Origin: a virus
Taxonomy: Duplodnaviria; Caudoviricetes
Direction: 5' to 3' (one strand)
IMG/VR virus record: IMGVR_UViG_3300032327_000953
Location: 174,136 to 238,135 of that record
Length of the DNA: 64,000 nucleotides
Under the pieces are notes generated by a model. The model was given only the letters and a program-made list of their open reading frames with translations. It searched no databases and was not told the origin of the DNA. The first letter of the stretch is position 1; the number at the start of each line of letters is the position of its first letter. Below, piece by piece: positions 49,658 to 57,265 of this stretch. Both the position numbers and the translations under genes were made by a program.

Positions 49658-49694
49658 TACACACTCATACACATTTTAAGTTTTTCTCCAAATT

Positions 49695-49702
49695 AGTGTA
49701 TA
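49695..49702 (+). promoter_or_regulatory. putative late promoter variant AGTGTATA for the endonuclease gene
   Basis: In the gap before SD AAGGAG / ATG 49724. Confidence 0.5.
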
Positions 49703-49723
49703 TGTATGTATAAGGAGAAACAT

Positions 49724-50443
49724 ATGGGGCGTAAAATCGAAAATGGCAGATTTACTAAATGTTACGATAAAAAGCTAACTAAAAAATTCTTAGAAAAAGA
49801 ATATCCAAAAAAAGGGGCATATGTTCTTTCTAAATCTTTAAATATACATGTTAAGACGATATATAATTATTTAGAATACTATAACATACCTAGAACCAGA
49901 AAAATAAGTAAAACCCTCAAATCTGGACAAATTTTTGGACTTCTAACATTACTTCATCCAGAAGGTAAAAATAAAAGCGACGGTGGAACTAAATGGAAAT
50001 GCCAATGCAGTTGTGGAAATACTACTATAGTACCACAATCTAGATTGAAGACGAATAGAGTAAAGAGTTGTGGTTGTTGGAAAAAAAGAAAAATGAACCA
50101 CAGATGGAAAGGATATTGCGGAATCAGTGGAGCTAGGGTTTCAGAGATAAAAGGCAGAGCAAGAAAACATAATTTTGATTTTGATCTAGATCCTAAATTT
50201 TTATGGAATTTGTATATCGATCAAAATAAGAAATGTGCAATCACGGGTAAGCCCATAGAGATTGACATCGACGGATCACTGGATAGAATAGACAGCAGCA
50301 AGGGCTACGTCAGAGATAATGTCTGGTGGGTCACAAAAAATATTAACAAAATGAAACTAGATTTTTCGCTACCTATATTTATAGATCTATGCGAACAAGT
50401 CGTAGCCAACAAGGAGAAAATAAAGTATGGACGTGAAGCATAA
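49724..50443 (+). mobile_element. free-standing HNH-like putative homing endonuclease
   Basis: HTH-like N-terminus, GQIFGLLT..WKCQCSCG..SCGC, SLDRIDSSKGY..N....N..K; own promoter and SD; wedged between exonuclease and dnaE. Confidence 0.75.
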
Positions 50444-52319
50444 CTATGTGCCTCTACACGTCCATTCTTAGCGATCTCACTACTCGCTATTGGATGGACT
50501 CTCTAAACCAGATCAAATTGCTGAAAGATGTTTAGCTATCGGAGCTAAGTCTTGCGCTATAACAGATCATGGTTCAATTTCAGGTGCTGTTTCATTCTAT
50601 CAGTCAATGAAAAAGAAAAACATCAAGCCTATTCTTGGATGTGAGCTTTATATTTGTGAAGGTTTATCTACCAATCAGAATAAGGAAAATGGCTCCTTAT
50701 CTCATATGTTGGTTCTGGCAAAAAACCAGAAAGGCTGGCAAAATCTCATCCGTTTAGTTTCAACTACCAACGAGCCATCAAGGTTTTATAGAAAGCCTAG
50801 GATCAGTCTAAGTGAGATGGAGAACCTAGATATGAGCGGACTACTCTGTATCACTGGTCATCTTGGTTCCAATCTGGCCGATGCTGTTGGAAATGGTAGT
50901 GATTTGACCAAAGCAGAAAATATGATTGGTCAGTTATCTGGTATATTTGGAAAAGACCATCTATTTTTTGAAGCCCAATTAATGGATAAGGAACATACTC
51001 CAAGTCAGATAGTTTTAACTGATATTATGAGAAATTTATCTGTCAAGCATAAAGTAAAAATGATAGCAACTCCAGACGCTCACTATGCCAAAAAAGAAGA
51101 TGCTATTGATCAAAGAGTTCTTTTGTGCAACACATTGAAAACAACATTTCCAGAAGTTAATAAAAAGATAGTTAATGATCAAGATGTTCCTCTTGGATGT
51201 TTTTTCAAATCAGATAATTTCTATATACTGTCCAACGAAGAAATGATAGAACTTCATACGGAAGAAGAATTAAGGAACACGAATCTTGTAGATGAAATGT
51301 GTGAAGAATATAATATCCTCAAAACTCCACAACTTCCTAGGTTTACAGATAATGAAGACGAATATCTAAGACAGCTTTGTAGAAATGGATGGAGAAAACG
51401 AGGATTTACTCAAGCCTCAGAAGAGGACCAAGCAATTTATGCAGAAAGAATCAAGCAGGAGTTGCAAGTTTTACAAGGAGCTAATCTATCTGGCTACTTC
51501 TTGATTGTTCAAGACATATTGGGTTATATACGATCAAAAGAGTGGTTACCCGGACCCGGACGAGGTTCGGCGGCAGGATGTCTAGTATCCTACTTATTAG
51601 AGATTACTAATATTGATCCTATAAAGTATAATCTTTTGTTTGAGAGATTTTATAACGCTGGTCGAAATAGTGGAGATAGAGTTTCCATGCCAGATATTGA
51701 TATTGACGTACCAATGACAACCAGAGATGACGTTATCTCATATATCAAAAACAAATATGGTGAAAATAAAGTTTCTCAAATGATTACTTTTAATACCATG
51801 AAGGGGCGAGGAGCCTTAAAAGAAGTATTAAGAGTTTATGGGGGATTAACCTATGAGGAAATGAATCAAATTACCAAAAATATTCCTGATGAGGCAAAGA
51901 TTGCAGATGAACTCCAAGAAATGAAAGAAGAAACCGGAGAGTCTTCAATTATACAGTGGTCTTTAGAGAATATGCCAGAAAAGTTCAAAGAGTGGTGCAA
52001 AATAGAAGATGACGGCTCAATAAGTGGACTATTTGCAAAAAGATTTGAACAAGCTATTAGATTAGAAGGAACCAAGTCCAATCAATCAAAACACGCTGCT
52101 GGTATTGCCATTTCGGCCCATAATTTAGATGAGATTTGTCCTATGGTGTATGATTCTAAGACCGGTAATCCTATTGCTGGTATGGAAATGCAAGATCTAG
52201 AATCATTAGGTATTGTTAAGTTTGATATTTTGGGTATCGGTATGTTAGATAAAATTATGTGCATTCAATCTATTTTAAAGGGTAATAATTATGTCACAAC
52301 AACAAACAACATTTGCTAA
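50427..52319 (+). CDS. dnaE: DNA polymerase III alpha, N-terminal part (PHP + palm); in-frame TAG at 50469-50471
   Basis: SD AAGGAG 50411-50416, ATG 50427, YVPLHVHS*RSHYSLLDG, TDHG, GCE, TPDAHY, GRGSAAG, PDIDID, KHAAG, KFDILG. Confidence 0.92.
50460..50499 (+). other. 9-nt insert TAGCGATCT (50469-50477) within a 14-bp hairpin; candidate ribosomal bypass element
   Basis: Matched TCT codons flank TAG CGA; GTCCATTC/GGATGGAC and TAGCGA/TCGCTA stems; 9-nt loop. Confidence 0.8.
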
Positions 52320-52473
52320 TATCGCTAATGATACAGTCTTTATCTATAATGGAATAGACTATAAGAAAACTGCAGAAGTAAGGGTTTCTTGCTGTAGAAA
52401 ACTCAATGCCGTTATGGTCAATAATAATGAAAAAGTTTTTATTCCAGATAATGCAGTTATAACAATCAAGTAA
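52291..52473 (+). CDS. 60-aa protein with CC motif
   Basis: TFANI..DTVF..YKK...CCRKLNA, similar to an internal segment of the next gene. Confidence 0.7.
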   Translation: MSQQQTTFANIANDTVFIYNGIDYKKTAEVRVSCCRKLNAVMVNNNEKVFIPDNAVITIK

Positions 52474-52495: not shown

Positions 52496-54946
52496 ATGAC
52501 TCATATTTTAGAGATACAGGACGGTGTTCTGTACTCATCTGGAGATAATGACTATGGACAGTTGGGGTTGGGAGATGTTAAAAGGCACGAAACCTCTCAG
52601 ATAGTCACCACCGGAATTGCAACATACGATGCTATTCCATGGATAGAAGCAAAAACCGGACTCAACCATTCTATAGGCGTTAAAAAAGATAAGAGCATAT
52701 GGTTTTGGGGGTCTAATGTGGAAGGCCAAATGGCACTTCCTAGTGAGATATTGTATCTTACGAAACCAAAAAAGATGGATATACCCATTAATGTATCTAA
52801 AGATATAGATATAAATAGTGGATTATATTTTACGATTATAGCTCAAACATCAGAGAAAGCATACGGATTTGGTACTTTTCAAAATTTCAAATCAAATGTA
52901 GTTGAATTATATAGGACTATTGTTCCTATTTATTCTATTGATCCTCTGGGAGATGTATTCTTAACAATAGACACTAGTTCCAAAACAATAATTGGACGCA
53001 TACAAGACGTTGGCTATGTTTATTCCGACTGGTCTGGGGATTTATTTGTTAATGAGTATGTTAAATTTTCTGATTTAAGAACAGGAGATCATTTTACACT
53101 ATATGATCCAAGTAATAGAGAAAGACTAGTATATAAAAAAGTAGATATGTTCCAGCTAGCAGACGGATGCTGTAAAATTAATGCTGCTTGTATGCATAGA
53201 AAGTTTAGAGAATTATTAAGTTCAGTACCAATACAATATCCTACTTTGCCTGGATTTGCTGTGGATCAATTACTTGGTACAGATAGAACCAGACTTGTTC
53301 CAGCAACCGATCAGTATGGAGCAAATTTTGTATTTAATTCAGCTATTGCTGGCATGAATATTGCTGCATCTTCTTTTCCTAATAATGTAGATCCAATAAC
53401 ATTAAAAGGATTGTATTTAGCAACAGGTAAAAATACTCTATTAGATATTCTATTATTTGGGGGATTATATTTTAGTCCAGATTTAACACAAACATTGAAT
53501 ATTAATACTGTAGTTCAAAAAATATATGCTAGAGAGGTTTATAAGAAAGATGCTTTTCCTCCATATTTTTCCGAAGTTGGTGATTATGAGTTATTGCCTG
53601 GGAGAGAATATAATCCAGATCCAATAGCTAGATATAACCAATATGAAAAAGCAGCGCCAATGTATTGGTTTAAATTAGATTCAGATAAGAAACCCATCAA
53701 ATATAAAACCGCCCATAGAGACTTCCTGTATACTGCACCAGTACAAAGAATGAGTACTCTGGAAAAAAATCTATTTGATTTGTATTTCAGCACTTCATCA
53801 GGATTCTTCTATACTGAGCCACCAAAAAATGATGGAGACACCCCCAATATAATAAAACATGAAGTTGATCTTCCTGCAGATGAAAATAATCATATCACAG
53901 TAGAGGATCGTATTTTAGATTATCCGTATCTAATCTCATATGACATAACCACCGGTCAATCATCCTTTGCTCAAAACTTTTTTGACCCATACTTAAGAGT
54001 TAAAATACAAGATCCAACACAAGGGGGGATAGCATGTAATGATCCCGGCACGGGCGCTGGACCAATTACAACAATAAGTTCAGATGATATCAAATGGCTT
54101 TATGAATGCGAAGTACACACAGGAAACAGAACATATCCAACTTACAATATAGGTATTTATGCTCAACAACTCATTGATTATTTTTTAAATCCAGATACTG
54201 ATCCAGAAGAAACTAATAAATTCTTCGGCTTTGCAAAATTTGAATTAGAAGAATTAGTTACCACTATTAAAACTGGTAATCCAGATAAGCCAGGATATGG
54301 GGTAGTCAAAAAATCTTTTGGTTTACTGAGAGATGTACTTAATGTTCAAATCAATAATAAGTTTTATTTTTCTCCCACTACTAATCAACCAATATTTAAA
54401 ATAAGTCAAACAGAAGATTCTGAATCTAGTCAAACAATATCTTTTACAAATGCAATAAGAAATTATACTTTATATGGTACTTATGATGGAGTTCATAAGA
54501 TTAGAATACCATATAAGAAGATATCTTGTTTTACATATTTTTCCAAAACAGCCAAAGTAGAGAATAATAAACTTGTTTACTCATATACTCCAGATAGATC
54601 CACAATAGTTGTGCCAACAGATATTACCAATAGAATTATTGCCACAAATACTAAAATAAGTTATTGGGTACCCAAAAAAGTTGATGAAAAGGGGAATTTT
54701 ATACAATATGCAAATAACTTAATGCAACAAACAGTGAGTGTTGTGGTAACGAAAGTAACATACGACTCTGCAACGAATCTTACAAAAATAACTCTGGACA
54801 AACCGTTCAGTGTTGACTATATTATAGGATGTATCCCATACATAGGACCACCACCGGGATGTGGCCCAATTATCTCTCCAGAAATTTATTACAATAACCT
54901 TTTCGATACTACACTAGCTTTACAGGACACAACGGGATCATTATGA
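52496..54946 (+). CDS. large protein with N-terminal RCC1-like repeats
   Basis: LYSSGDNDYGQLGLG, GLNHSIGV..IWFWGSNVEGQM, SGLYFT..AYGFG. Confidence 0.75.
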   Translation: MTHILEIQDGVLYSSGDNDYGQLGLGDVKRHETSQIVTTGIATYDAIPWIEAKTGLNHSIGVKKDKSIWFWGSNVEGQMALPSEILYLTKPKKMDIPINVSKDIDINSGLYFTIIAQTSEKAYGFGTFQNFKSNVVELYRTIVPIYSIDPLGDVFLTIDTSSKTIIGRIQDVGYVYSDWSGDLFVNEYVKFSDLRTGDHFTLYDPSNRERLVYKKVDMFQLADGCCKINAACMHRKFRELLSSVPIQYPTLPGFAVDQLLGTDRTRLVPATDQYGANFVFNSAIAGMNIAASSFPNNVDPITLKGLYLATGKNTLLDILLFGGLYFSPDLTQTLNINTVVQKIYAREVYKKDAFPPYFSEVGDYELLPGREYNPDPIARYNQYEKAAPMYWFKLDSDKKPIKYKTAHRDFLYTAPVQRMSTLEKNLFDLYFSTSSGFFYTEPPKNDGDTPNIIKHEVDLPADENNHITVEDRILDYPYLISYDITTGQSSFAQNFFDPYLRVKIQDPTQGGIACNDPGTGAGPITTISSDDIKWLYECEVHTGNRTYPTYNIGIYAQQLIDYFLNPDTDPEETNKFFGFAKFELEELVTTIKTGNPDKPGYGVVKKSFGLLRDVLNVQINNKFYFSPTTNQPIFKISQTEDSESSQTISFTNAIRNYTLYGTYDGVHKIRIPYKKISCFTYFSKTAKVENNKLVYSYTPDRSTIVVPTDITNRIIATNTKISYWVPKKVDEKGNFIQYANNLMQQTVSVVVTKVTYDSATNLTKITLDKPFSVDYIIGCIPYIGPPPGCGPIISPEIYYNNLFDTTLALQDTTGSL

Positions 54947-55644
54947 AAAATAAGATATGCGTATTTGACTTTGAAACAGATGGAATCAATACGGATGAAT
55001 GTAGCCCGGTACAGATTGCTGCTATTATCGTGGACCCATACAATTTGTCTATCGTAAAAGATTCTGAATTCAATATTATGGTTAAGCCAGAAAAGCTTGA
55101 ACTAGATAAAGATTATACATATAAGGATTCTGATATTCTGGATTTTCATGCTAAAGTGAGAAGTTCAACCCCAGAAAAAATACTTGAGTCTTGGCAAAAC
55201 GCAATATCTCAACAACAAGCTTGGTCAATGTTCTCCAAATATCTAGAGATCTACCATCTCAACAGATCAAAAAAGAGTATGTTTTCTGCACCAGTAGCAT
55301 CAGGATATAACATACTCAGATTCGATATGAAAATAGTGGAAAGATTTAGTCGTAAATTTGGCTATGTTAATAGTGAAAATGGCACAAGTCTATTTTATCC
55401 AAGAGATACTCTAGATATGATGAATCTGTTATTTTACTGGTTTGAAAGTAATAATGATATGAAGAGTCTAAGTTTAGACAATATCCGCGATTATATGGGA
55501 ATAACCAAAGAGGGCGCTCACGACGCTTTGAAAGATGTCAGAGATTCTGCTGAACTGGTTATCAGATTTCTAAGGTTGCATCGTAATCTTTCCAAAAAAA
55601 TTAAGTTTAAGGACTCTTTTTCGTCAGATAGCACACTAGTTTAA
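54943..55644 (+). CDS. dnaQ: DEDDh 3'-5' exonuclease (epsilon-like)
   Basis: FDFETDG, GYNILRFD, HDALKDV. Confidence 0.88.
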   Translation: MKNKICVFDFETDGINTDECSPVQIAAIIVDPYNLSIVKDSEFNIMVKPEKLELDKDYTYKDSDILDFHAKVRSSTPEKILESWQNAISQQQAWSMFSKYLEIYHLNRSKKSMFSAPVASGYNILRFDMKIVERFSRKFGYVNSENGTSLFYPRDTLDMMNLLFYWFESNNDMKSLSLDNIRDYMGITKEGAHDALKDVRDSAELVIRFLRLHRNLSKKIKFKDSFSSDSTLV

Positions 55645-55645
55645 T

Positions 55646-57265
55646 ATGACAAAATATTTAAAGTTTTCTTGCGGATGTAAATTTTTGGTTGATGATATCG
55701 ATCATTTGGATTTCGATATTAATACCATTCCTTTGGATTGTCAAAAAACATGGGATCTTATTGCAGATGGAAATACTAAGGGATGTTTTCAGCTTGAATC
55801 AAGATTGGGTCAAGCTATGGCTAAAAAACTTAAGCCAGAAAATATCGAACAATTAGCTGGTCTAATTAGTATTATGCGTCCCGGTTGCTTAGAAGCGGTT
55901 AGAGAAGGAAAAACTGTTAGTAATCACTTTATTGATAGGAAAAATGGTAATGAAAGTATAGATTATTATCATCCAGCACTTAAAGGGATTTTGGAATCTA
56001 CTTATGGTGAGATGGTTTATCAAGAACAAAGTATGCAAATAGCCCAAGAATTGGCGGGCTTTGATTTGCAAGAAGCGGACATGTTAAGAAAAGCTATTGG
56101 TAAAAAGAAGCCAGAAGAGATGGCCAAATTAAAGAAGGTATTTATTAATGGATGTATAGGTAAGAAAATAGTCTCAGAGCCAGAAGCAGAAGAAATTTTC
56201 GGCTGGATTGAAAAGTCTCAGAGATATTCATTTAATAAATCACATGCTGTTAGTTATGCGATTAATGGATACTTATCGGCATATGCTAAAGCTCATTTTC
56301 CAAAGATATTTTTTGTATCATATCTAAGATTCGCAAAAGATAAAATAGATCCTCAGCAAGAAATCAAAGAGCTTGTTAATAATGCAAGCACTATGGGTAT
56401 ACAGGTATTATTACCAAAATTCAAGTTGATGAATAAAGAATTCATATCGATAGGAGATAATATCTATTTCGGCTTAACTAATATCAAGGGTGTCGGAGAA
56501 TCTGTATTTGACAATCTATTAGAACAATATAAAAATACTGGCATAGATGATAATTCAAGCATTATAACAATTTTTTGCAGACTATTGTGCAATATTAATA
56601 GTGCTGCTGCTAAGGCTATGATATCAGCCGGATGTTTTGATGACTATAAGACACCAAGAACAGAACTACTATTATATTTAGAATTGCTCAATAAATTAAC
56701 CAAAAAAGAATCAGAACAAATCTGCATAAATAACCTTGATAAGAATAATAAAAAGTTCAGAGATGTTTTTGTTCAGTTATTAGATTGTAAGGTTACTAAA
56801 AAGAGAAAAATATTAATTCAAGAATTTATAGACACAATAGATAAGCCTCCATATTCGCTAAAAGACAATATGCAATGGATAGCAGAGACAGAAGGATCTC
56901 TATTAGGTCTACCGATCACATGCACCAAAACGGATTGTTATTCTCAAAATTATGAAGCAAATATTATAACTTGCAAAGAATTTAAAGATATAATGACACA
57001 AAATAAGAAAGTTTCGGTCATGGGTGAAATTAGTCGTCTTAGTGTTATCAGAACAAAACAAGGAAAAAACAAAGGAGCAAATATGGCTTTTTTGGAAATC
57101 TTTGATAGCTCTGGCACAATAGATTCGGTAGTGCTATTTCCAGAACAGTATACTAATTTTAGTGACGTTCTTAAGGAAAACGAAGTTTTAGTTTTTGTGG
57201 GTTCTAAATCAAAAAAATCTGACAATAGCCTGATTGTAGAAAAATGTTTTATTCCAGAGTCTTGA
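55646..57265 (+). CDS. dnaE: DNA polymerase III alpha, C-terminal part (fingers, HhH, OB)
   Basis: TKGCFQLES, RPG, YQEQ, AGF..ADMLRKA.GKK, YSFNKSHA, FGLTNIKGVG, MAFLEIFD. Confidence 0.92.
   Translation: MTKYLKFSCGCKFLVDDIDHLDFDINTIPLDCQKTWDLIADGNTKGCFQLESRLGQAMAKKLKPENIEQLAGLISIMRPGCLEAVREGKTVSNHFIDRKNGNESIDYYHPALKGILESTYGEMVYQEQSMQIAQELAGFDLQEADMLRKAIGKKKPEEMAKLKKVFINGCIGKKIVSEPEAEEIFGWIEKSQRYSFNKSHAVSYAINGYLSAYAKAHFPKIFFVSYLRFAKDKIDPQQEIKELVNNASTMGIQVLLPKFKLMNKEFISIGDNIYFGLTNIKGVGESVFDNLLEQYKNTGIDDNSSIITIFCRLLCNINSAAAKAMISAGCFDDYKTPRTELLLYLELLNKLTKKESEQICINNLDKNNKKFRDVFVQLLDCKVTKKRKILIQEFIDTIDKPPYSLKDNMQWIAETEGSLLGLPITCTKTDCYSQNYEANIITCKEFKDIMTQNKKVSVMGEISRLSVIRTKQGKNKGANMAFLEIFDSSGTIDSVVLFPEQYTNFSDVLKENEVLVFVGSKSKKSDNSLIVEKCFIPES

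What the first reader, a model, noticed from the sequence alone, without database searches (positions are those of the whole stretch)
50411..50500. Candidate 9-nt ribosomal bypass (stop-hop) inside the dnaE PHP motif
Seen: SD AAGGAG (50411) and ATG 50427 open a frame reading MDVKHNYVPLHVHS-TAG-CGA-TCT-HYSLLDGLSKP, continuous with the 609-aa DnaE ORF. Removing 9 nt gives HVHSHYSLLD, the H-x-H-x6-D spacing of the PHP metal site. The other PHP ligands (DH, GCE, H, DAH) are intact downstream. The codon before the stop (TCT 50466) is repeated just after it (TCT 50475). The inserted TAGCGA is the exact reverse complement of downstream TCGCTA, closing a 14-bp hairpin (50460-50499) with the second TCT in its 9-nt loop. 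Established: T4 gene 60 is translated by ribosomal bypassing with matched take-off/landing codons, an adjacent UAG and a stem-loop. Inference: peptidyl-tRNA-Ser hops TCT to TCT over the stop, giving an ultra-short programmed bypass in a replicative polymerase gene. It could also throttle polymerase levels. RNA-level excision is a less likely alternative.
Basis: partly seen in the sequence, partly recalled or inferred. Interest (0 to 1): 0.95.

Follow-up and report, generated by a model that had tools for sequence, protein, structure and literature searches.

The report
Ribosome-hop gap in phage dnaE
The DNA polymerase gene of this uncultured jumbo phage carries a 9-base stop-containing insert in a catalytic motif. 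More than 100 related loci hold 8 to 11-base versions in a co-varying RNA hairpin, often next to a selfish nuclease gene, so ribosomes most likely hop over it, as in phage T4 gene 60.

Summary
SD 50411-50416 and ATG 50427 open a 14-codon leader ending in HVHS. It is followed by TAG-CGA-TCT (50469-50477), then HYSLLDG and the rest of dnaE-N, all inside a 14-bp two-tier hairpin (50460-50499).

It is not an assembly error. About 110 independent metagenomic loci carry an insert at the same point.
- Insert lengths are 8, 9, 10 or 11 nt, so read-through cannot be the general answer.
- A stop codon (TAA, TAG or TGA) always follows a TCY serine codon directly.
- The leader peptide codons are under purifying selection.
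- The inner stem co-varies.

The phage uses the standard genetic code and has no suppressor tRNA.

The insert is patchy on the DnaE tree; the window's closest relatives lack it. In the window it arrived with an HNH endonuclease gene (49706-50443) as an ~800-nt cassette, parallel to T4 mobA/gene 60.

Best reading (~0.7): a programmed short translational bypass.

No RNA or protein data could be obtained. The scan has noted the same kind of dnaE hop on other genomes. I found no published description.

The parts
49706..50443 (+). Free-standing HNH/endonuclease-VII-like endonuclease gene (245 aa). Its last 17 nt overlap the dnaE start.
   Evidence: PHROG matches: phrog_3322 endonuclease 5e-23, phrog_374 HNH endonuclease 6e-18, phrog_1035 endonuclease VII 9e-15. 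Phage homologues are annotated HNH endonuclease. A CxCxC...CGC cluster and an SLDRID...N..WV...N motif are visible in the translation. The gene is absent from the syntenic position in the closest relatives L002-L004.
49660..50502 (+). Cassette present in the window but not in its closest relatives: the HNH gene plus a replacement dnaE 5' end (SD, leader, insert, hairpin).
   Evidence: Synteny with L002/L003/L004 runs up to ~49659 and resumes at ~50475. Over SD to outer stem the window is 93% identical to L149, then 68%. Against L002 it is 47% there, then 78%.
50411..50416 (+). Shine-Dalgarno AAGGAG of dnaE.
   Evidence: Read directly. A comparable SD precedes the leader ATG in the insert-bearing loci.
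50427..50468 (+). 14-codon leader ORF MDVKHNYVPLHVHS, carrying the first PHP metal-ligand motif HxH. The take-off codon TCT is at 50466-50468.
   Evidence: In 63 unique related contexts the Y, P, L and H codons show 0 non-synonymous changes and 2 to 5 synonymous codons each. The leader is 14 codons long in 52 of 63.
50469..50477 (+). The 9 nt not represented in the protein: stop TAG (50469-50471), CGA, and landing triplet TCT (50475-50477).
   Evidence: Homologous inserts of 8, 9, 10 and 11 nt occur in 8, 12, 29 and 20 loci. Relatives without the insert read HVHS-HYSLLDG continuously.
50460..50499 (+). Two-tier RNA hairpin. Outer stem 50460-50467 with 50492-50499, inner stem 50469-50474 with 50484-50489, loop 50475-50483. 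The take-off codon sits at the junction of the two stems, and the skipped bases form the 5' arm of the inner stem.
   Evidence: Fold of -20.1 kcal/mol, z = -4.4. All 42 unique variants fold the same way. 98.2% of cells are paired, and 4 pairs carry compensatory changes.
50478..52319 (+). Body of dnaE-N (PHP plus palm/NTPase domains), resuming at CAC (His).
   Evidence: Pfam PHP 4.8e-32 and DNA_pol3_alpha 1.2e-72.
55646..57265 (+). dnaE-C (fingers, HhH, OB), the second half of the split polymerase.
   Evidence: Pfam DNA_pol3_finger 1.4e-48, HHH_6 and an OB fold.

Best explanation
This is a programmed short-range translational bypass (hop).

Proposed steps, inferred by analogy with T4 gene 60:
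1. Ribosomes start at ATG 50427 and make the 14-residue leader ending in HVHS.
2. They pause with peptidyl-tRNA-Ser on UCU (50466-50468) and UAG in the A site.
3. The stop and the next bases form the 5' arm of a small stem-loop. This hinders release-factor action.
4. The peptidyl-tRNA lets go of its codon and the mRNA slides 9 nt (8 to 11 nt in relatives).
5. The tRNA re-pairs on the NCN triplet at the top of that arm (UCU 50475-50477).
6. Decoding resumes at CAC 50478. One DnaE-N chain results with an intact HVHSHYSLLDG metal site.

Origin: the insert is the protective scar and partner of an HNH homing-endonuclease cassette (49706-50443 plus the new dnaE 5' end). This cassette moves between related phages, as the 50-nt gap of T4 gene 60 goes with mobA.

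Shown here: the anatomy, conservation, covariation, frame logic, patchiness, and the cassette insertion and mosaicism.
Inferred: the hop itself, its efficiency, and cleavage of insert-free alleles by the HNH enzyme.
For: 1. The gap must be skipped.
- Of the 80 best IMG/VR relatives, 60 read HxHS-(H/M)(Y/F)SLLDG continuously and 20 carry an insert at exactly this point.
- Across 69 loci the insert is 8, 9, 10 or 11 nt.
- Of 34 distinct take-off plus insert combinations, 8 have the stop in frame and 2 of the 10-nt inserts have TGA in the +1 frame. No single frameshift or read-through mechanism serves them all.

2. A stop always follows Ser TCY directly. TAA occurs 37 times and TAG 32 times. A TGA variant has a compensating Leu codon CTC. 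In the unbiased set the Ser codon is TCY in 20/20 insert-bearing loci against 16/60 without the insert.

3. The leader is translated and selected. In 63 unique contexts the Y, P, L and H codons are never changed non-synonymously, yet use 2 to 5 synonymous codons each. The SD and ATG are always kept.

4. The hairpin is conserved.
- Mean fold energy is -19.5 kcal/mol with the insert and -4.3 without.
- GTCCATTC is present in 20/20 insert-bearing loci against 0/60.
- 98.2% of cells are paired. Four pairs carry double changes (U-A/A-U/C-G, G-C/A-U, A-U/G-C).
- The covariation score is 0.133 against 0.091 in shuffles (0 of 500 reach it). Slid registers pair at most 48.6% of cells.

5. Standard code. 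TAG ends 27 of 205 long ORFs, and none of the 10 phage tRNAs is a suppressor.

6. Natural precise-loss alleles (L167/L182) keep the 14-codon leader and both outer arms and read HVHS-HFSLLDG. This is the predicted hop product.

7. Mobile cassette.
- The insert needs at least 9 gains or losses on the DnaE-N tree, and the window's nearest relatives (82% aa) lack it.
- This HNH family lies directly upstream, intact or as a remnant, in 15 of 78 insert-bearing loci against 0 of 60 insert-free loci.
- The window has an ~800-nt insertion relative to L002-L004.
- The 5' module is 87 to 100% identical between loci whose gene bodies are 63 to 75% identical.

8. The layout matches what is described for gene 60: take-off codon in the 5' side of a stem, stop next to it, and an adjacent HNH-type homing endonuclease whose cutting the gap prevents (bioRxiv 10.1101/2022.08.31.505936).
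Against: - There is no RNA, ribosome-profiling or protein evidence.
- The landing triplet matches the Ser take-off codon in only about half of the loci. ACT and GCY need a first-position mismatch. This departs from the matched-codon rule of gene 60 and of synthetic stop-hops.
- The landing site lies inside the hairpin loop rather than beyond it, so the gene 60 mechanism cannot simply be transferred.
- The outer stem never varies. Its support is synonymous-site conservation, not covariation, and most loci were collected with a pattern that required it. The unbiased set has only 20 insert-bearing loci.
- The take-off is only 14 codons from the start, so the nascent-peptide signal known from gene 60 cannot be assumed.
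- 24 of the 34 insert variants would also be open to a simple +1 or -1 shift, giving 3 or 4 extra residues.
Confidence: 0.72

Rival explanations
1. Termination and restart, giving a two-piece protein. Ribosomes stop at UAG and release the 14-residue leader. DnaE-N is then made separately from a downstream start (TTG 50490 in the window, or the ATG right after the gap in M-type relatives). It would either lack the HxH ligands or be complemented in trans by the free leader peptide.
For: TTG 50490 opens the 609-aa ORF. In M-type relatives an ATG follows the gap by a few bases, and some inserts contain SD-like AGGTGA or AGGTG. The phage has a separate DnaQ-like exonuclease, so a crippled PHP site might be tolerable.
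Against: H-type relatives, including the window, have no start codon at the resume position, yet they keep the H/M and Y/F codons in the unpaired loop. The leader's Y-x-P-L-H codons are under purifying selection in 63 contexts. This is hard to explain for a discarded peptide. Natural loss alleles fuse leader and body exactly. A single mechanism would also have to use different start codons in different relatives.
Confidence: 0.08
2. Mixed conventional recoding. The stop is read through in 9-nt inserts and the ribosome shifts +1 or -1 in the 10-, 8- and 11-nt inserts. Each gives a DnaE with 3 or 4 extra, variable residues inside the PHP motif.
For: 24 of 34 insert variants are open in the frame that a +1 or -1 shift would reach. 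The read-through product still scores 119 bits for PHP.
Against: It needs three different mechanisms in sequences that share one conserved structure. Two 10-nt variants have TGA in the +1 frame. There is no slippery motif: UCU/UCC to UUC or CUU would be non-cognate. No suppressor tRNA is encoded, and TAG is a normal stop. The extra residues would not be conserved. None of the 60 uninterrupted relatives has extra residues here.
Confidence: 0.07
3. A shorter slide with the NCN triplet decoded. The mRNA slides only 5 to 8 nt and the 'landing' triplet is read in the A site as Ser, Thr or Ala. The product is HVHS-(S/T/A)-HYSLLDG, with one extra small residue.
For: The triplet is always TCN, ACT or GCY, that is Ser, Thr or Ala, and never Pro. 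This would also explain why it need not match the take-off codon.
Against: After such a slide the P-site tRNA would have nothing to pair with. The first base of the triplet is explained by its pairing within the inner stem. No uninterrupted relative, nor the precise-loss alleles, has an extra residue here.
Confidence: 0.06
4. Removal at the RNA level. The 8 to 11 nt are cut out of the transcript, or skipped by RNA polymerase, under the guidance of the hairpin.
For: The skipped bases are exactly one arm of a conserved helix. No RNA data exclude it.
Against: No bacterial or phage mechanism is known that excises 8 to 11 nt precisely. The structure is not a bulge-helix-bulge motif. An obligatory stop codon directly after the last decoded codon (all three stop codons occur, with compensating Leu codons) is a translational signature that splicing would not need. 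No near-identical contig pair with and without the insert was found in viral or metagenome collections.
Confidence: 0.05
5. Assembly error or a dead gene.
For: Reads for this window could not be inspected.
Against: About 110 independent loci from many samples carry the feature, with an intact leader, SD and downstream ORF. L149 from another sample shares 93% of the module. dnaE is this genome's replicative polymerase gene, and the rest of it is intact.
Confidence: 0.02

Closest known systems
Phage T4 gene 60 translational bypass with the mobA homing-endonuclease cassette (Huang 1988; Bonocora 2011, from my own knowledge; summarised in bioRxiv 10.1101/2022.08.31.505936)
   Same: - An essential phage replication gene is interrupted by untranslated bases.
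- The take-off codon is followed directly by a stop.
- The take-off codon and the stop lie in the 5' side of a stem-loop.
- An HNH-type free-standing endonuclease gene lies immediately upstream.
- The element is patchy among relatives and behaves as a mobile cassette.
- The host gene is also split into two genes.
   Different: - The gap is 8 to 11 nt rather than 50 nt, and there is no sequence similarity.
- The gene is dnaE (PHP motif), not topoisomerase.
- The landing triplet lies inside the hairpin loop, not beyond it.
- The landing triplet matches the take-off codon in only about half of the family.
- The take-off is at codon 14, not codon 46, so a long nascent-peptide signal is unlikely.
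- No experiment exists.
Synthetic 'stop-hops' in E. coli (Weiss, Dunn, Atkins, Gesteland 1987; reviewed in PMC5009743)
   Same: A short forward hop of peptidyl-tRNA over a stop codon to a nearby similar codon. The review says natural counterparts were long presumed but that none is known.
   Different: The synthetic hops are codon-stop-codon (+6, low efficiency) without a dedicated structure. Here the hop is +8 to +11, with a conserved co-varying hairpin and natural selection on an essential gene.
Candidate 10-nt bypass in the large terminase of Streptomyces phage phiHau3 (PMC10732093)
   Same: A short (7 to 10 nt) frame-breaking insert in a conserved phage gene, with local RNA structure that brings the landing codon near the take-off site. 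Relatives lack the insert.
   Different: The trigger there is the rare UUA sense codon (a hungry codon) and a regulatory role is proposed. Here the trigger is a stop codon. The family is much larger (more than 100 loci) and is linked to a homing endonuclease.
Byp elements of Magnusiomyces capitatus mitochondria (cited)
   Same: Mobile short inserts that are tolerated because ribosomes bypass them. Take-off and landing codons usually match.
   Different: Those are 27 to 55 nt, number 81 copies in many genes, occur in a mitochondrial system, and have an unassigned sense codon in the A site.

Membership tests
Programmed translational bypassing (functional class) | A block of bases inside a coding sequence that must be left untranslated to give the conserved protein | tested here: met
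   Insert-free relatives read HVHS-HYSLLDG. Inserts of 8 to 11 nt occur at one point. Precise-loss alleles exist.
Programmed translational bypassing (functional class) | A slow-to-decode A-site codon (stop or hungry codon) directly 3' of the take-off codon | tested here: met
   TAA, TAG or TGA follows in every insert-bearing locus. This holds for 20/20 in the unbiased set.
Programmed translational bypassing (functional class) | A landing codon that matches the take-off codon | tested here: inconclusive
   The window has TCT/TCT. In the family the triplet is TCN in 34 loci, ACT in 19 and GCY in 16 of 69. C at position 2 is invariant.
Programmed translational bypassing (functional class) | A stimulatory mRNA structure that includes the take-off site | tested here: met
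   Two-tier hairpin with z = -4.4, 98.2% of cells paired, 4 compensatory pairs, and controls exceeded.
Programmed translational bypassing (functional class) | Insert retained in mRNA and absent from the protein (RT-PCR, MS) | not testable with these tools
T4 gene 60 / MobA cassette (homologous family) | A 50-nt gap cassette in the topoisomerase large-subunit gene, homologous in sequence | tested here: not met
   The gene is different (dnaE), the gap is 8 to 11 nt, and no sequence relation is seen. This is an analogue, not a member.
Free-standing HNH homing endonuclease | HNH-type nuclease domain | tested here: met
   PHROG endonuclease/HNH/EndoVII families at 5e-23 to 9e-15. Annotated phage homologues exist. 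Pfam and PDB sequence searches found nothing.
Free-standing HNH homing endonuclease | Sporadic presence at a fixed intergenic site among close relatives, with decayed copies | tested here: met
   The gene is absent from the syntenic site in L002-L004. It is intact or truncated and adjacent in 15 of 78 insert-bearing loci and in 0 of 60 insert-free loci.
Free-standing HNH homing endonuclease | Cuts the allele that lacks the element, while its own allele is protected by the insert | not testable with these tools
   Inferred only from the association and from the gene 60 precedent.
Stop-codon reassignment or suppressor read-through | In-frame stops in many genes, or a suppressor tRNA, with inserts in whole codons | tested here: not met
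   TAG ends 27 of 205 ORFs. No tRNA has a CUA anticodon. 57 of 69 inserts are not multiples of 3.
DnaE (Pol III alpha) PHP domain | HxH...D, DH, E, H and DxH metal ligands with profile spacing | tested here: met
   Pfam PHP spans profile positions 2-162 over 172 residues in L002 and 175 residues in the window's read-through product. The hop would restore 172.

The most novel reading that the evidence does not exclude
This is a large natural family of ultra-short (8 to 11 nt), hairpin-guided translational hops in an essential replicative polymerase gene. The landing position is set mainly by RNA structure rather than by a matched codon. The site is created and spread by an HNH homing-endonuclease cassette as self-protection. 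It would be a second, independent and far more variable counterpart of T4 gene 60.
Probability: 0.6. Interest if true: 0.88.

Novelty: new variant of a known kind. Interest (0 to 1): 0.82.

Why it matters
Efficient programmed bypassing in bacteria and phages rests essentially on one model, T4 gene 60. The 2016 recoding review (PMC5009743) says shorter counterparts were long presumed and that no natural stop-hop is known.

This family would supply:
- More than 30 natural sequence variants of a minimal hop site, with four gap lengths, three stop codons and matched or mismatched landing triplets.
- A ready-made mutational series for asking what makes a ribosome let go and re-land.
- A second case in which a homing endonuclease and a bypass gap travel together.

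It also matters for annotation. Gene callers truncate these polymerase genes at an internal TTG and lose the first metal-binding motif.

Tried and rejected
- Alternative genetic code or suppressor tRNA: rejected.
- Cultured or annotated relatives in the phage collection: none closer than 34% aa identity.
- Co-conversion tract downstream of the hairpin: no clear excess identity beyond the stem. The mosaic boundary lies at the end of the outer stem.
- Genome-wide scan for other stop-at-junction two-tier hairpins: it recovered the dnaE site, but the other 83 hits looked like noise.
- The second HNH paralogue (genome 158836-159138): no similar interrupted gene lies next to it.
- MAFFT alignment A1 mixes two pairing registers, so it was not used for pair counts. 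A covariance-model alignment was used instead, which leans towards the structure.
- Pfam and PDB sequence searches for the endonuclease: no hits.
- Literature searches for a described dnaE bypass: none found.
- SD-like sequence in the gap (AGGTGA, AGGTGATC): present in some variants but not in the window's TAGCGA, so it is not treated as a defining signal.
Full report
**What is there**

The window is the last 64 kb of a 238-kb IMG/VR phage record with terminal repeats and 35% GC. At 50411-50416 lies AAGGAG, and ATG 50427 opens MDVKHNYVPLHVHS.

The Ser codon TCT (50466-50468) is followed by TAG CGA TCT (50469-50477). Then come CAC TAC TCG CTA TTG GAT GGA, reading HYSLLDG, and the rest of a 609-aa ORF with PHP and Pol III alpha palm domains.

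TAGCGA pairs with TCGCTA, and GTCCATTC pairs with GGATGGAC. This gives a 14-bp two-tier hairpin at 50460-50499 with a 9-nt loop that starts with the second TCT. The fold is -20.1 kcal/mol with z = -4.4.

**Not a code change**

Long ORFs of the genome end in TAA 110 times, TGA 68 times and TAG 27 times. No genes are strung together by in-frame TAGs. The ten phage tRNAs include no suppressor.

**Relatives**

A protein-guided scan of IMG/VR found 327 relatives of DnaE-N. In the best 80, 60 read HxHS-(H/M)(Y/F)SLLDG without interruption and 20 carry an insert at exactly this point.

DNA-pattern scans raised the number of insert-bearing loci to 69 in IMG/VR, plus two with a TGA stop. Another 40 turned up in metagenome contigs, 11 of them new variants. 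One hit came from an 8-kb contig binned with a Chitinophagia MAG.

Insert lengths are 8, 9, 10 and 11 nt in 8, 12, 29 and 20 loci, so 57 of 69 break the frame.

In every case:
- a 13 to 15-codon leader (14 codons in 52 of 63 unique contexts) with a strong SD ends in PLHVHS;
- the Ser codon is TCT or TCC;
- a stop codon follows at once;
- the frame of (H/M)(Y/F)SLLDG resumes after an NCN triplet.

Pfam places the leader on PHP profile positions 2-6. The uninterrupted relative L002 covers the profile in 172 residues, and the window's read-through product covers it in 175.

**Selection**

In 63 unique contexts the leader codons for Y, P, L and H never change the amino acid. They nevertheless use 2, 3, 5 and 2 synonymous codons respectively. 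The leader is therefore translated and its sequence matters. This fits a peptide that ends up as the first strand and HxH ligands of the PHP domain.

Two contigs (L167/L182) keep the long leader and both outer-stem arms but lack the insert. They read HVHS-HFSLLDG. Their nearest relative (77% identity) carries an 11-nt insert. This is what a precise loss looks like, and it equals the predicted hop product.

**RNA structure**

- All 42 unique variants first collected fold into the same two-tier hairpin.
- Mean energy is -19.5 kcal/mol with the insert and -4.3 for the same codons in insert-free relatives.
- In the unbiased set GTCCATTC occurs in 20/20 insert-bearing and 0/60 insert-free loci. The Asp, Gly and Leu codons opposite it are similarly fixed.
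- The skipped bases are the 5' arm of the inner stem, and the 3' arm is the (Y)SL codons.
- On a covariance-model alignment of 55 distinct rows, 98.2% of cells pair (0 of 500 shuffles reach this).
- Four pairs change on both sides: U-A/A-U/C-G at the Ser wobble base, G-C/A-U at the Tyr/Phe wobble base, G-C/A-U, and A-U/G-C.
- The covariation score is 0.133 against 0.091, and slid registers pair at most 48.6%.
- The stop codon itself co-varies with the Leu codon: TAG with CTA, TAA with TTA or CTT, and TGA with CTC.

Caveats: the alignment was fitted to the structure. The outer stem is supported by synonymous-site conservation rather than by covariation.

**Why a hop**

Ten of the 34 distinct take-off plus insert combinations cannot be passed by any simple frameshift. 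Eight have the stop in frame, and two 10-nt inserts have TGA in the +1 frame.

The others would need +1 shifts in some relatives and -1 shifts in others, on non-slippery codons. They would also add 3 or 4 unconserved residues inside a metal-binding motif that no uninterrupted relative ever lengthens.

One mechanism explains all lengths. Peptidyl-tRNA-Ser leaves UCY with a stop in the A site, the mRNA slides 8 to 11 nt, and decoding resumes after the NCN triplet.

The layout matches what is described for T4 gene 60: the take-off codon in the 5' side of a stem, a stop codon next to it, and the top of the stem thought to form in the A site.

It differs in two ways. The landing triplet lies at the stem-loop junction. 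It also equals a Ser codon in only 34 of 69 loci, with ACT in 19 and GCY in 16. In the ACT and GCY cases the first base is used for stem pairing. C at position 2 is invariant. Landing may therefore depend on two base pairs plus geometry. That is an inference.

**The cassette**

The ORF directly upstream (49706-50443) overlaps the dnaE start by 17 nt and belongs to phage HNH/endonuclease VII-like families.

Against its closest relatives (L002-L004, 72 to 82% aa identity in DnaE-N) the window is collinear up to about 49659, the end of a PD-(D/E)XK exonuclease gene, and again from about 50475. The ~800 nt between are the HNH gene plus a different dnaE 5' end with the insert.

From the SD to the end of the outer stem the window is 93% identical to L149, whose gene body is only 68% identical. 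Against L002 the figures are 47% and 78%. Many other locus pairs show the same mosaic, with 87 to 100% identity in the leader module against 63 to 75% in the gene body.

This HNH family lies directly upstream, full-length or as C-terminal remnants, in 15 of 78 insert-bearing loci and 0 of 60 insert-free loci. These counts are not phylogenetically independent.

On a DnaE-N tree the insert needs 17 changes, at least 9 of them forced by well-supported branches.

This is the life cycle expected of a homing element: invasion, decay and loss. It parallels mobA/gene 60, where the gap protects the carrier from the nuclease. Cleavage specificity was not and could not be tested here.

**Literature and the scan's own notes**

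I found no description of a dnaE bypass.
- The 2016 review states that short counterparts of gene 60 were long presumed and that no natural stop-hop is known (PMC5009743).
- A 10-nt candidate exists in Streptomyces phage Hau3 terminase (PMC10732093).

Earlier notes of this scan report the same kind of dnaE PHP-motif hop on other genomes, and a note on this window proposes the HNH cassette. I treated these as leads. I tested the cassette idea here and did not test the other genomes.

One earlier bacterial case was later priced low because all its gaps were whole codons. That objection does not apply here, since most gaps break the frame.

**Limits**

No reads, RNA or protein data were available, and there is no cultured relative. 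The hop, its efficiency and the nuclease's target are inferred.

Noticed in passing
window 50427-52319, 52496-54946, 54943-55644, 55646-57265: dnaE is split after the palm domain (KFDILG...). An 816-aa RCC1-repeat protein gene and a DnaQ/RNase T-like exonuclease gene lie between dnaE-N and dnaE-C (fingers, HhH, OB). No intein signature was seen in Pfam. The same order is kept in L002-L005.
   Followed up: partly
L086, L097, L112, L124, L126, L142 (dnaE-N about 460 aa into the ORF); L149 (about 422 aa): In several insert-bearing relatives the dnaE-N ORF ends early in a sequence that looks like an intein N-part (...KFLTxNRGWxEAQYL...). L149 has another, different interruption. dnaE of this phage group seems to be a hotspot for selfish elements.
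   Followed up: no
L167:396-425, L182:5244-5273: These uninterrupted alleles keep the 14-codon leader and both outer-stem arms (GTCCATTC...GGATGGAC) but have no insert. They look like precise losses of the gap.
   Followed up: partly
L157:5986-6024, L159:3292-3330, L247: These variants use TGA as the stop (TCT TGAGTG TCA), with the Leu codon changed to CTC so that the stem still pairs. All three stop codons therefore occur in the family.
   Followed up: yes
insert-bearing loci, e.g. L087, L085, L137 (flanks of the hairpin): A third helix tier is predicted in many relatives between the Pro-Leu codons upstream (TTTAC or CTGC) and the Ser-Lys/Gln codons downstream (GTAAA or GCAG). Both sides appear to change together. 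It is not predicted in the window itself.
   Followed up: no
genome C1:127583-127672 (outside the window): ARAGORN calls a phage tRNA-Ser with anticodon ACT, which is unusual for Ser (normally GCT). It cannot read UCN, so it is not the hopping tRNA.
   Followed up: no
L213 (RFVO01000077.1, 8.1-kb contig of a Chitinophagia MAG): This is the only hit to the site in the species-genome collection. It is probably a phage contig binned with the MAG and is at best a weak hint about the host.
   Followed up: no
window 52291-52473: A 60-aa ORF without family matches overlaps the end of dnaE-N and precedes the RCC1-like gene.
   Followed up: no
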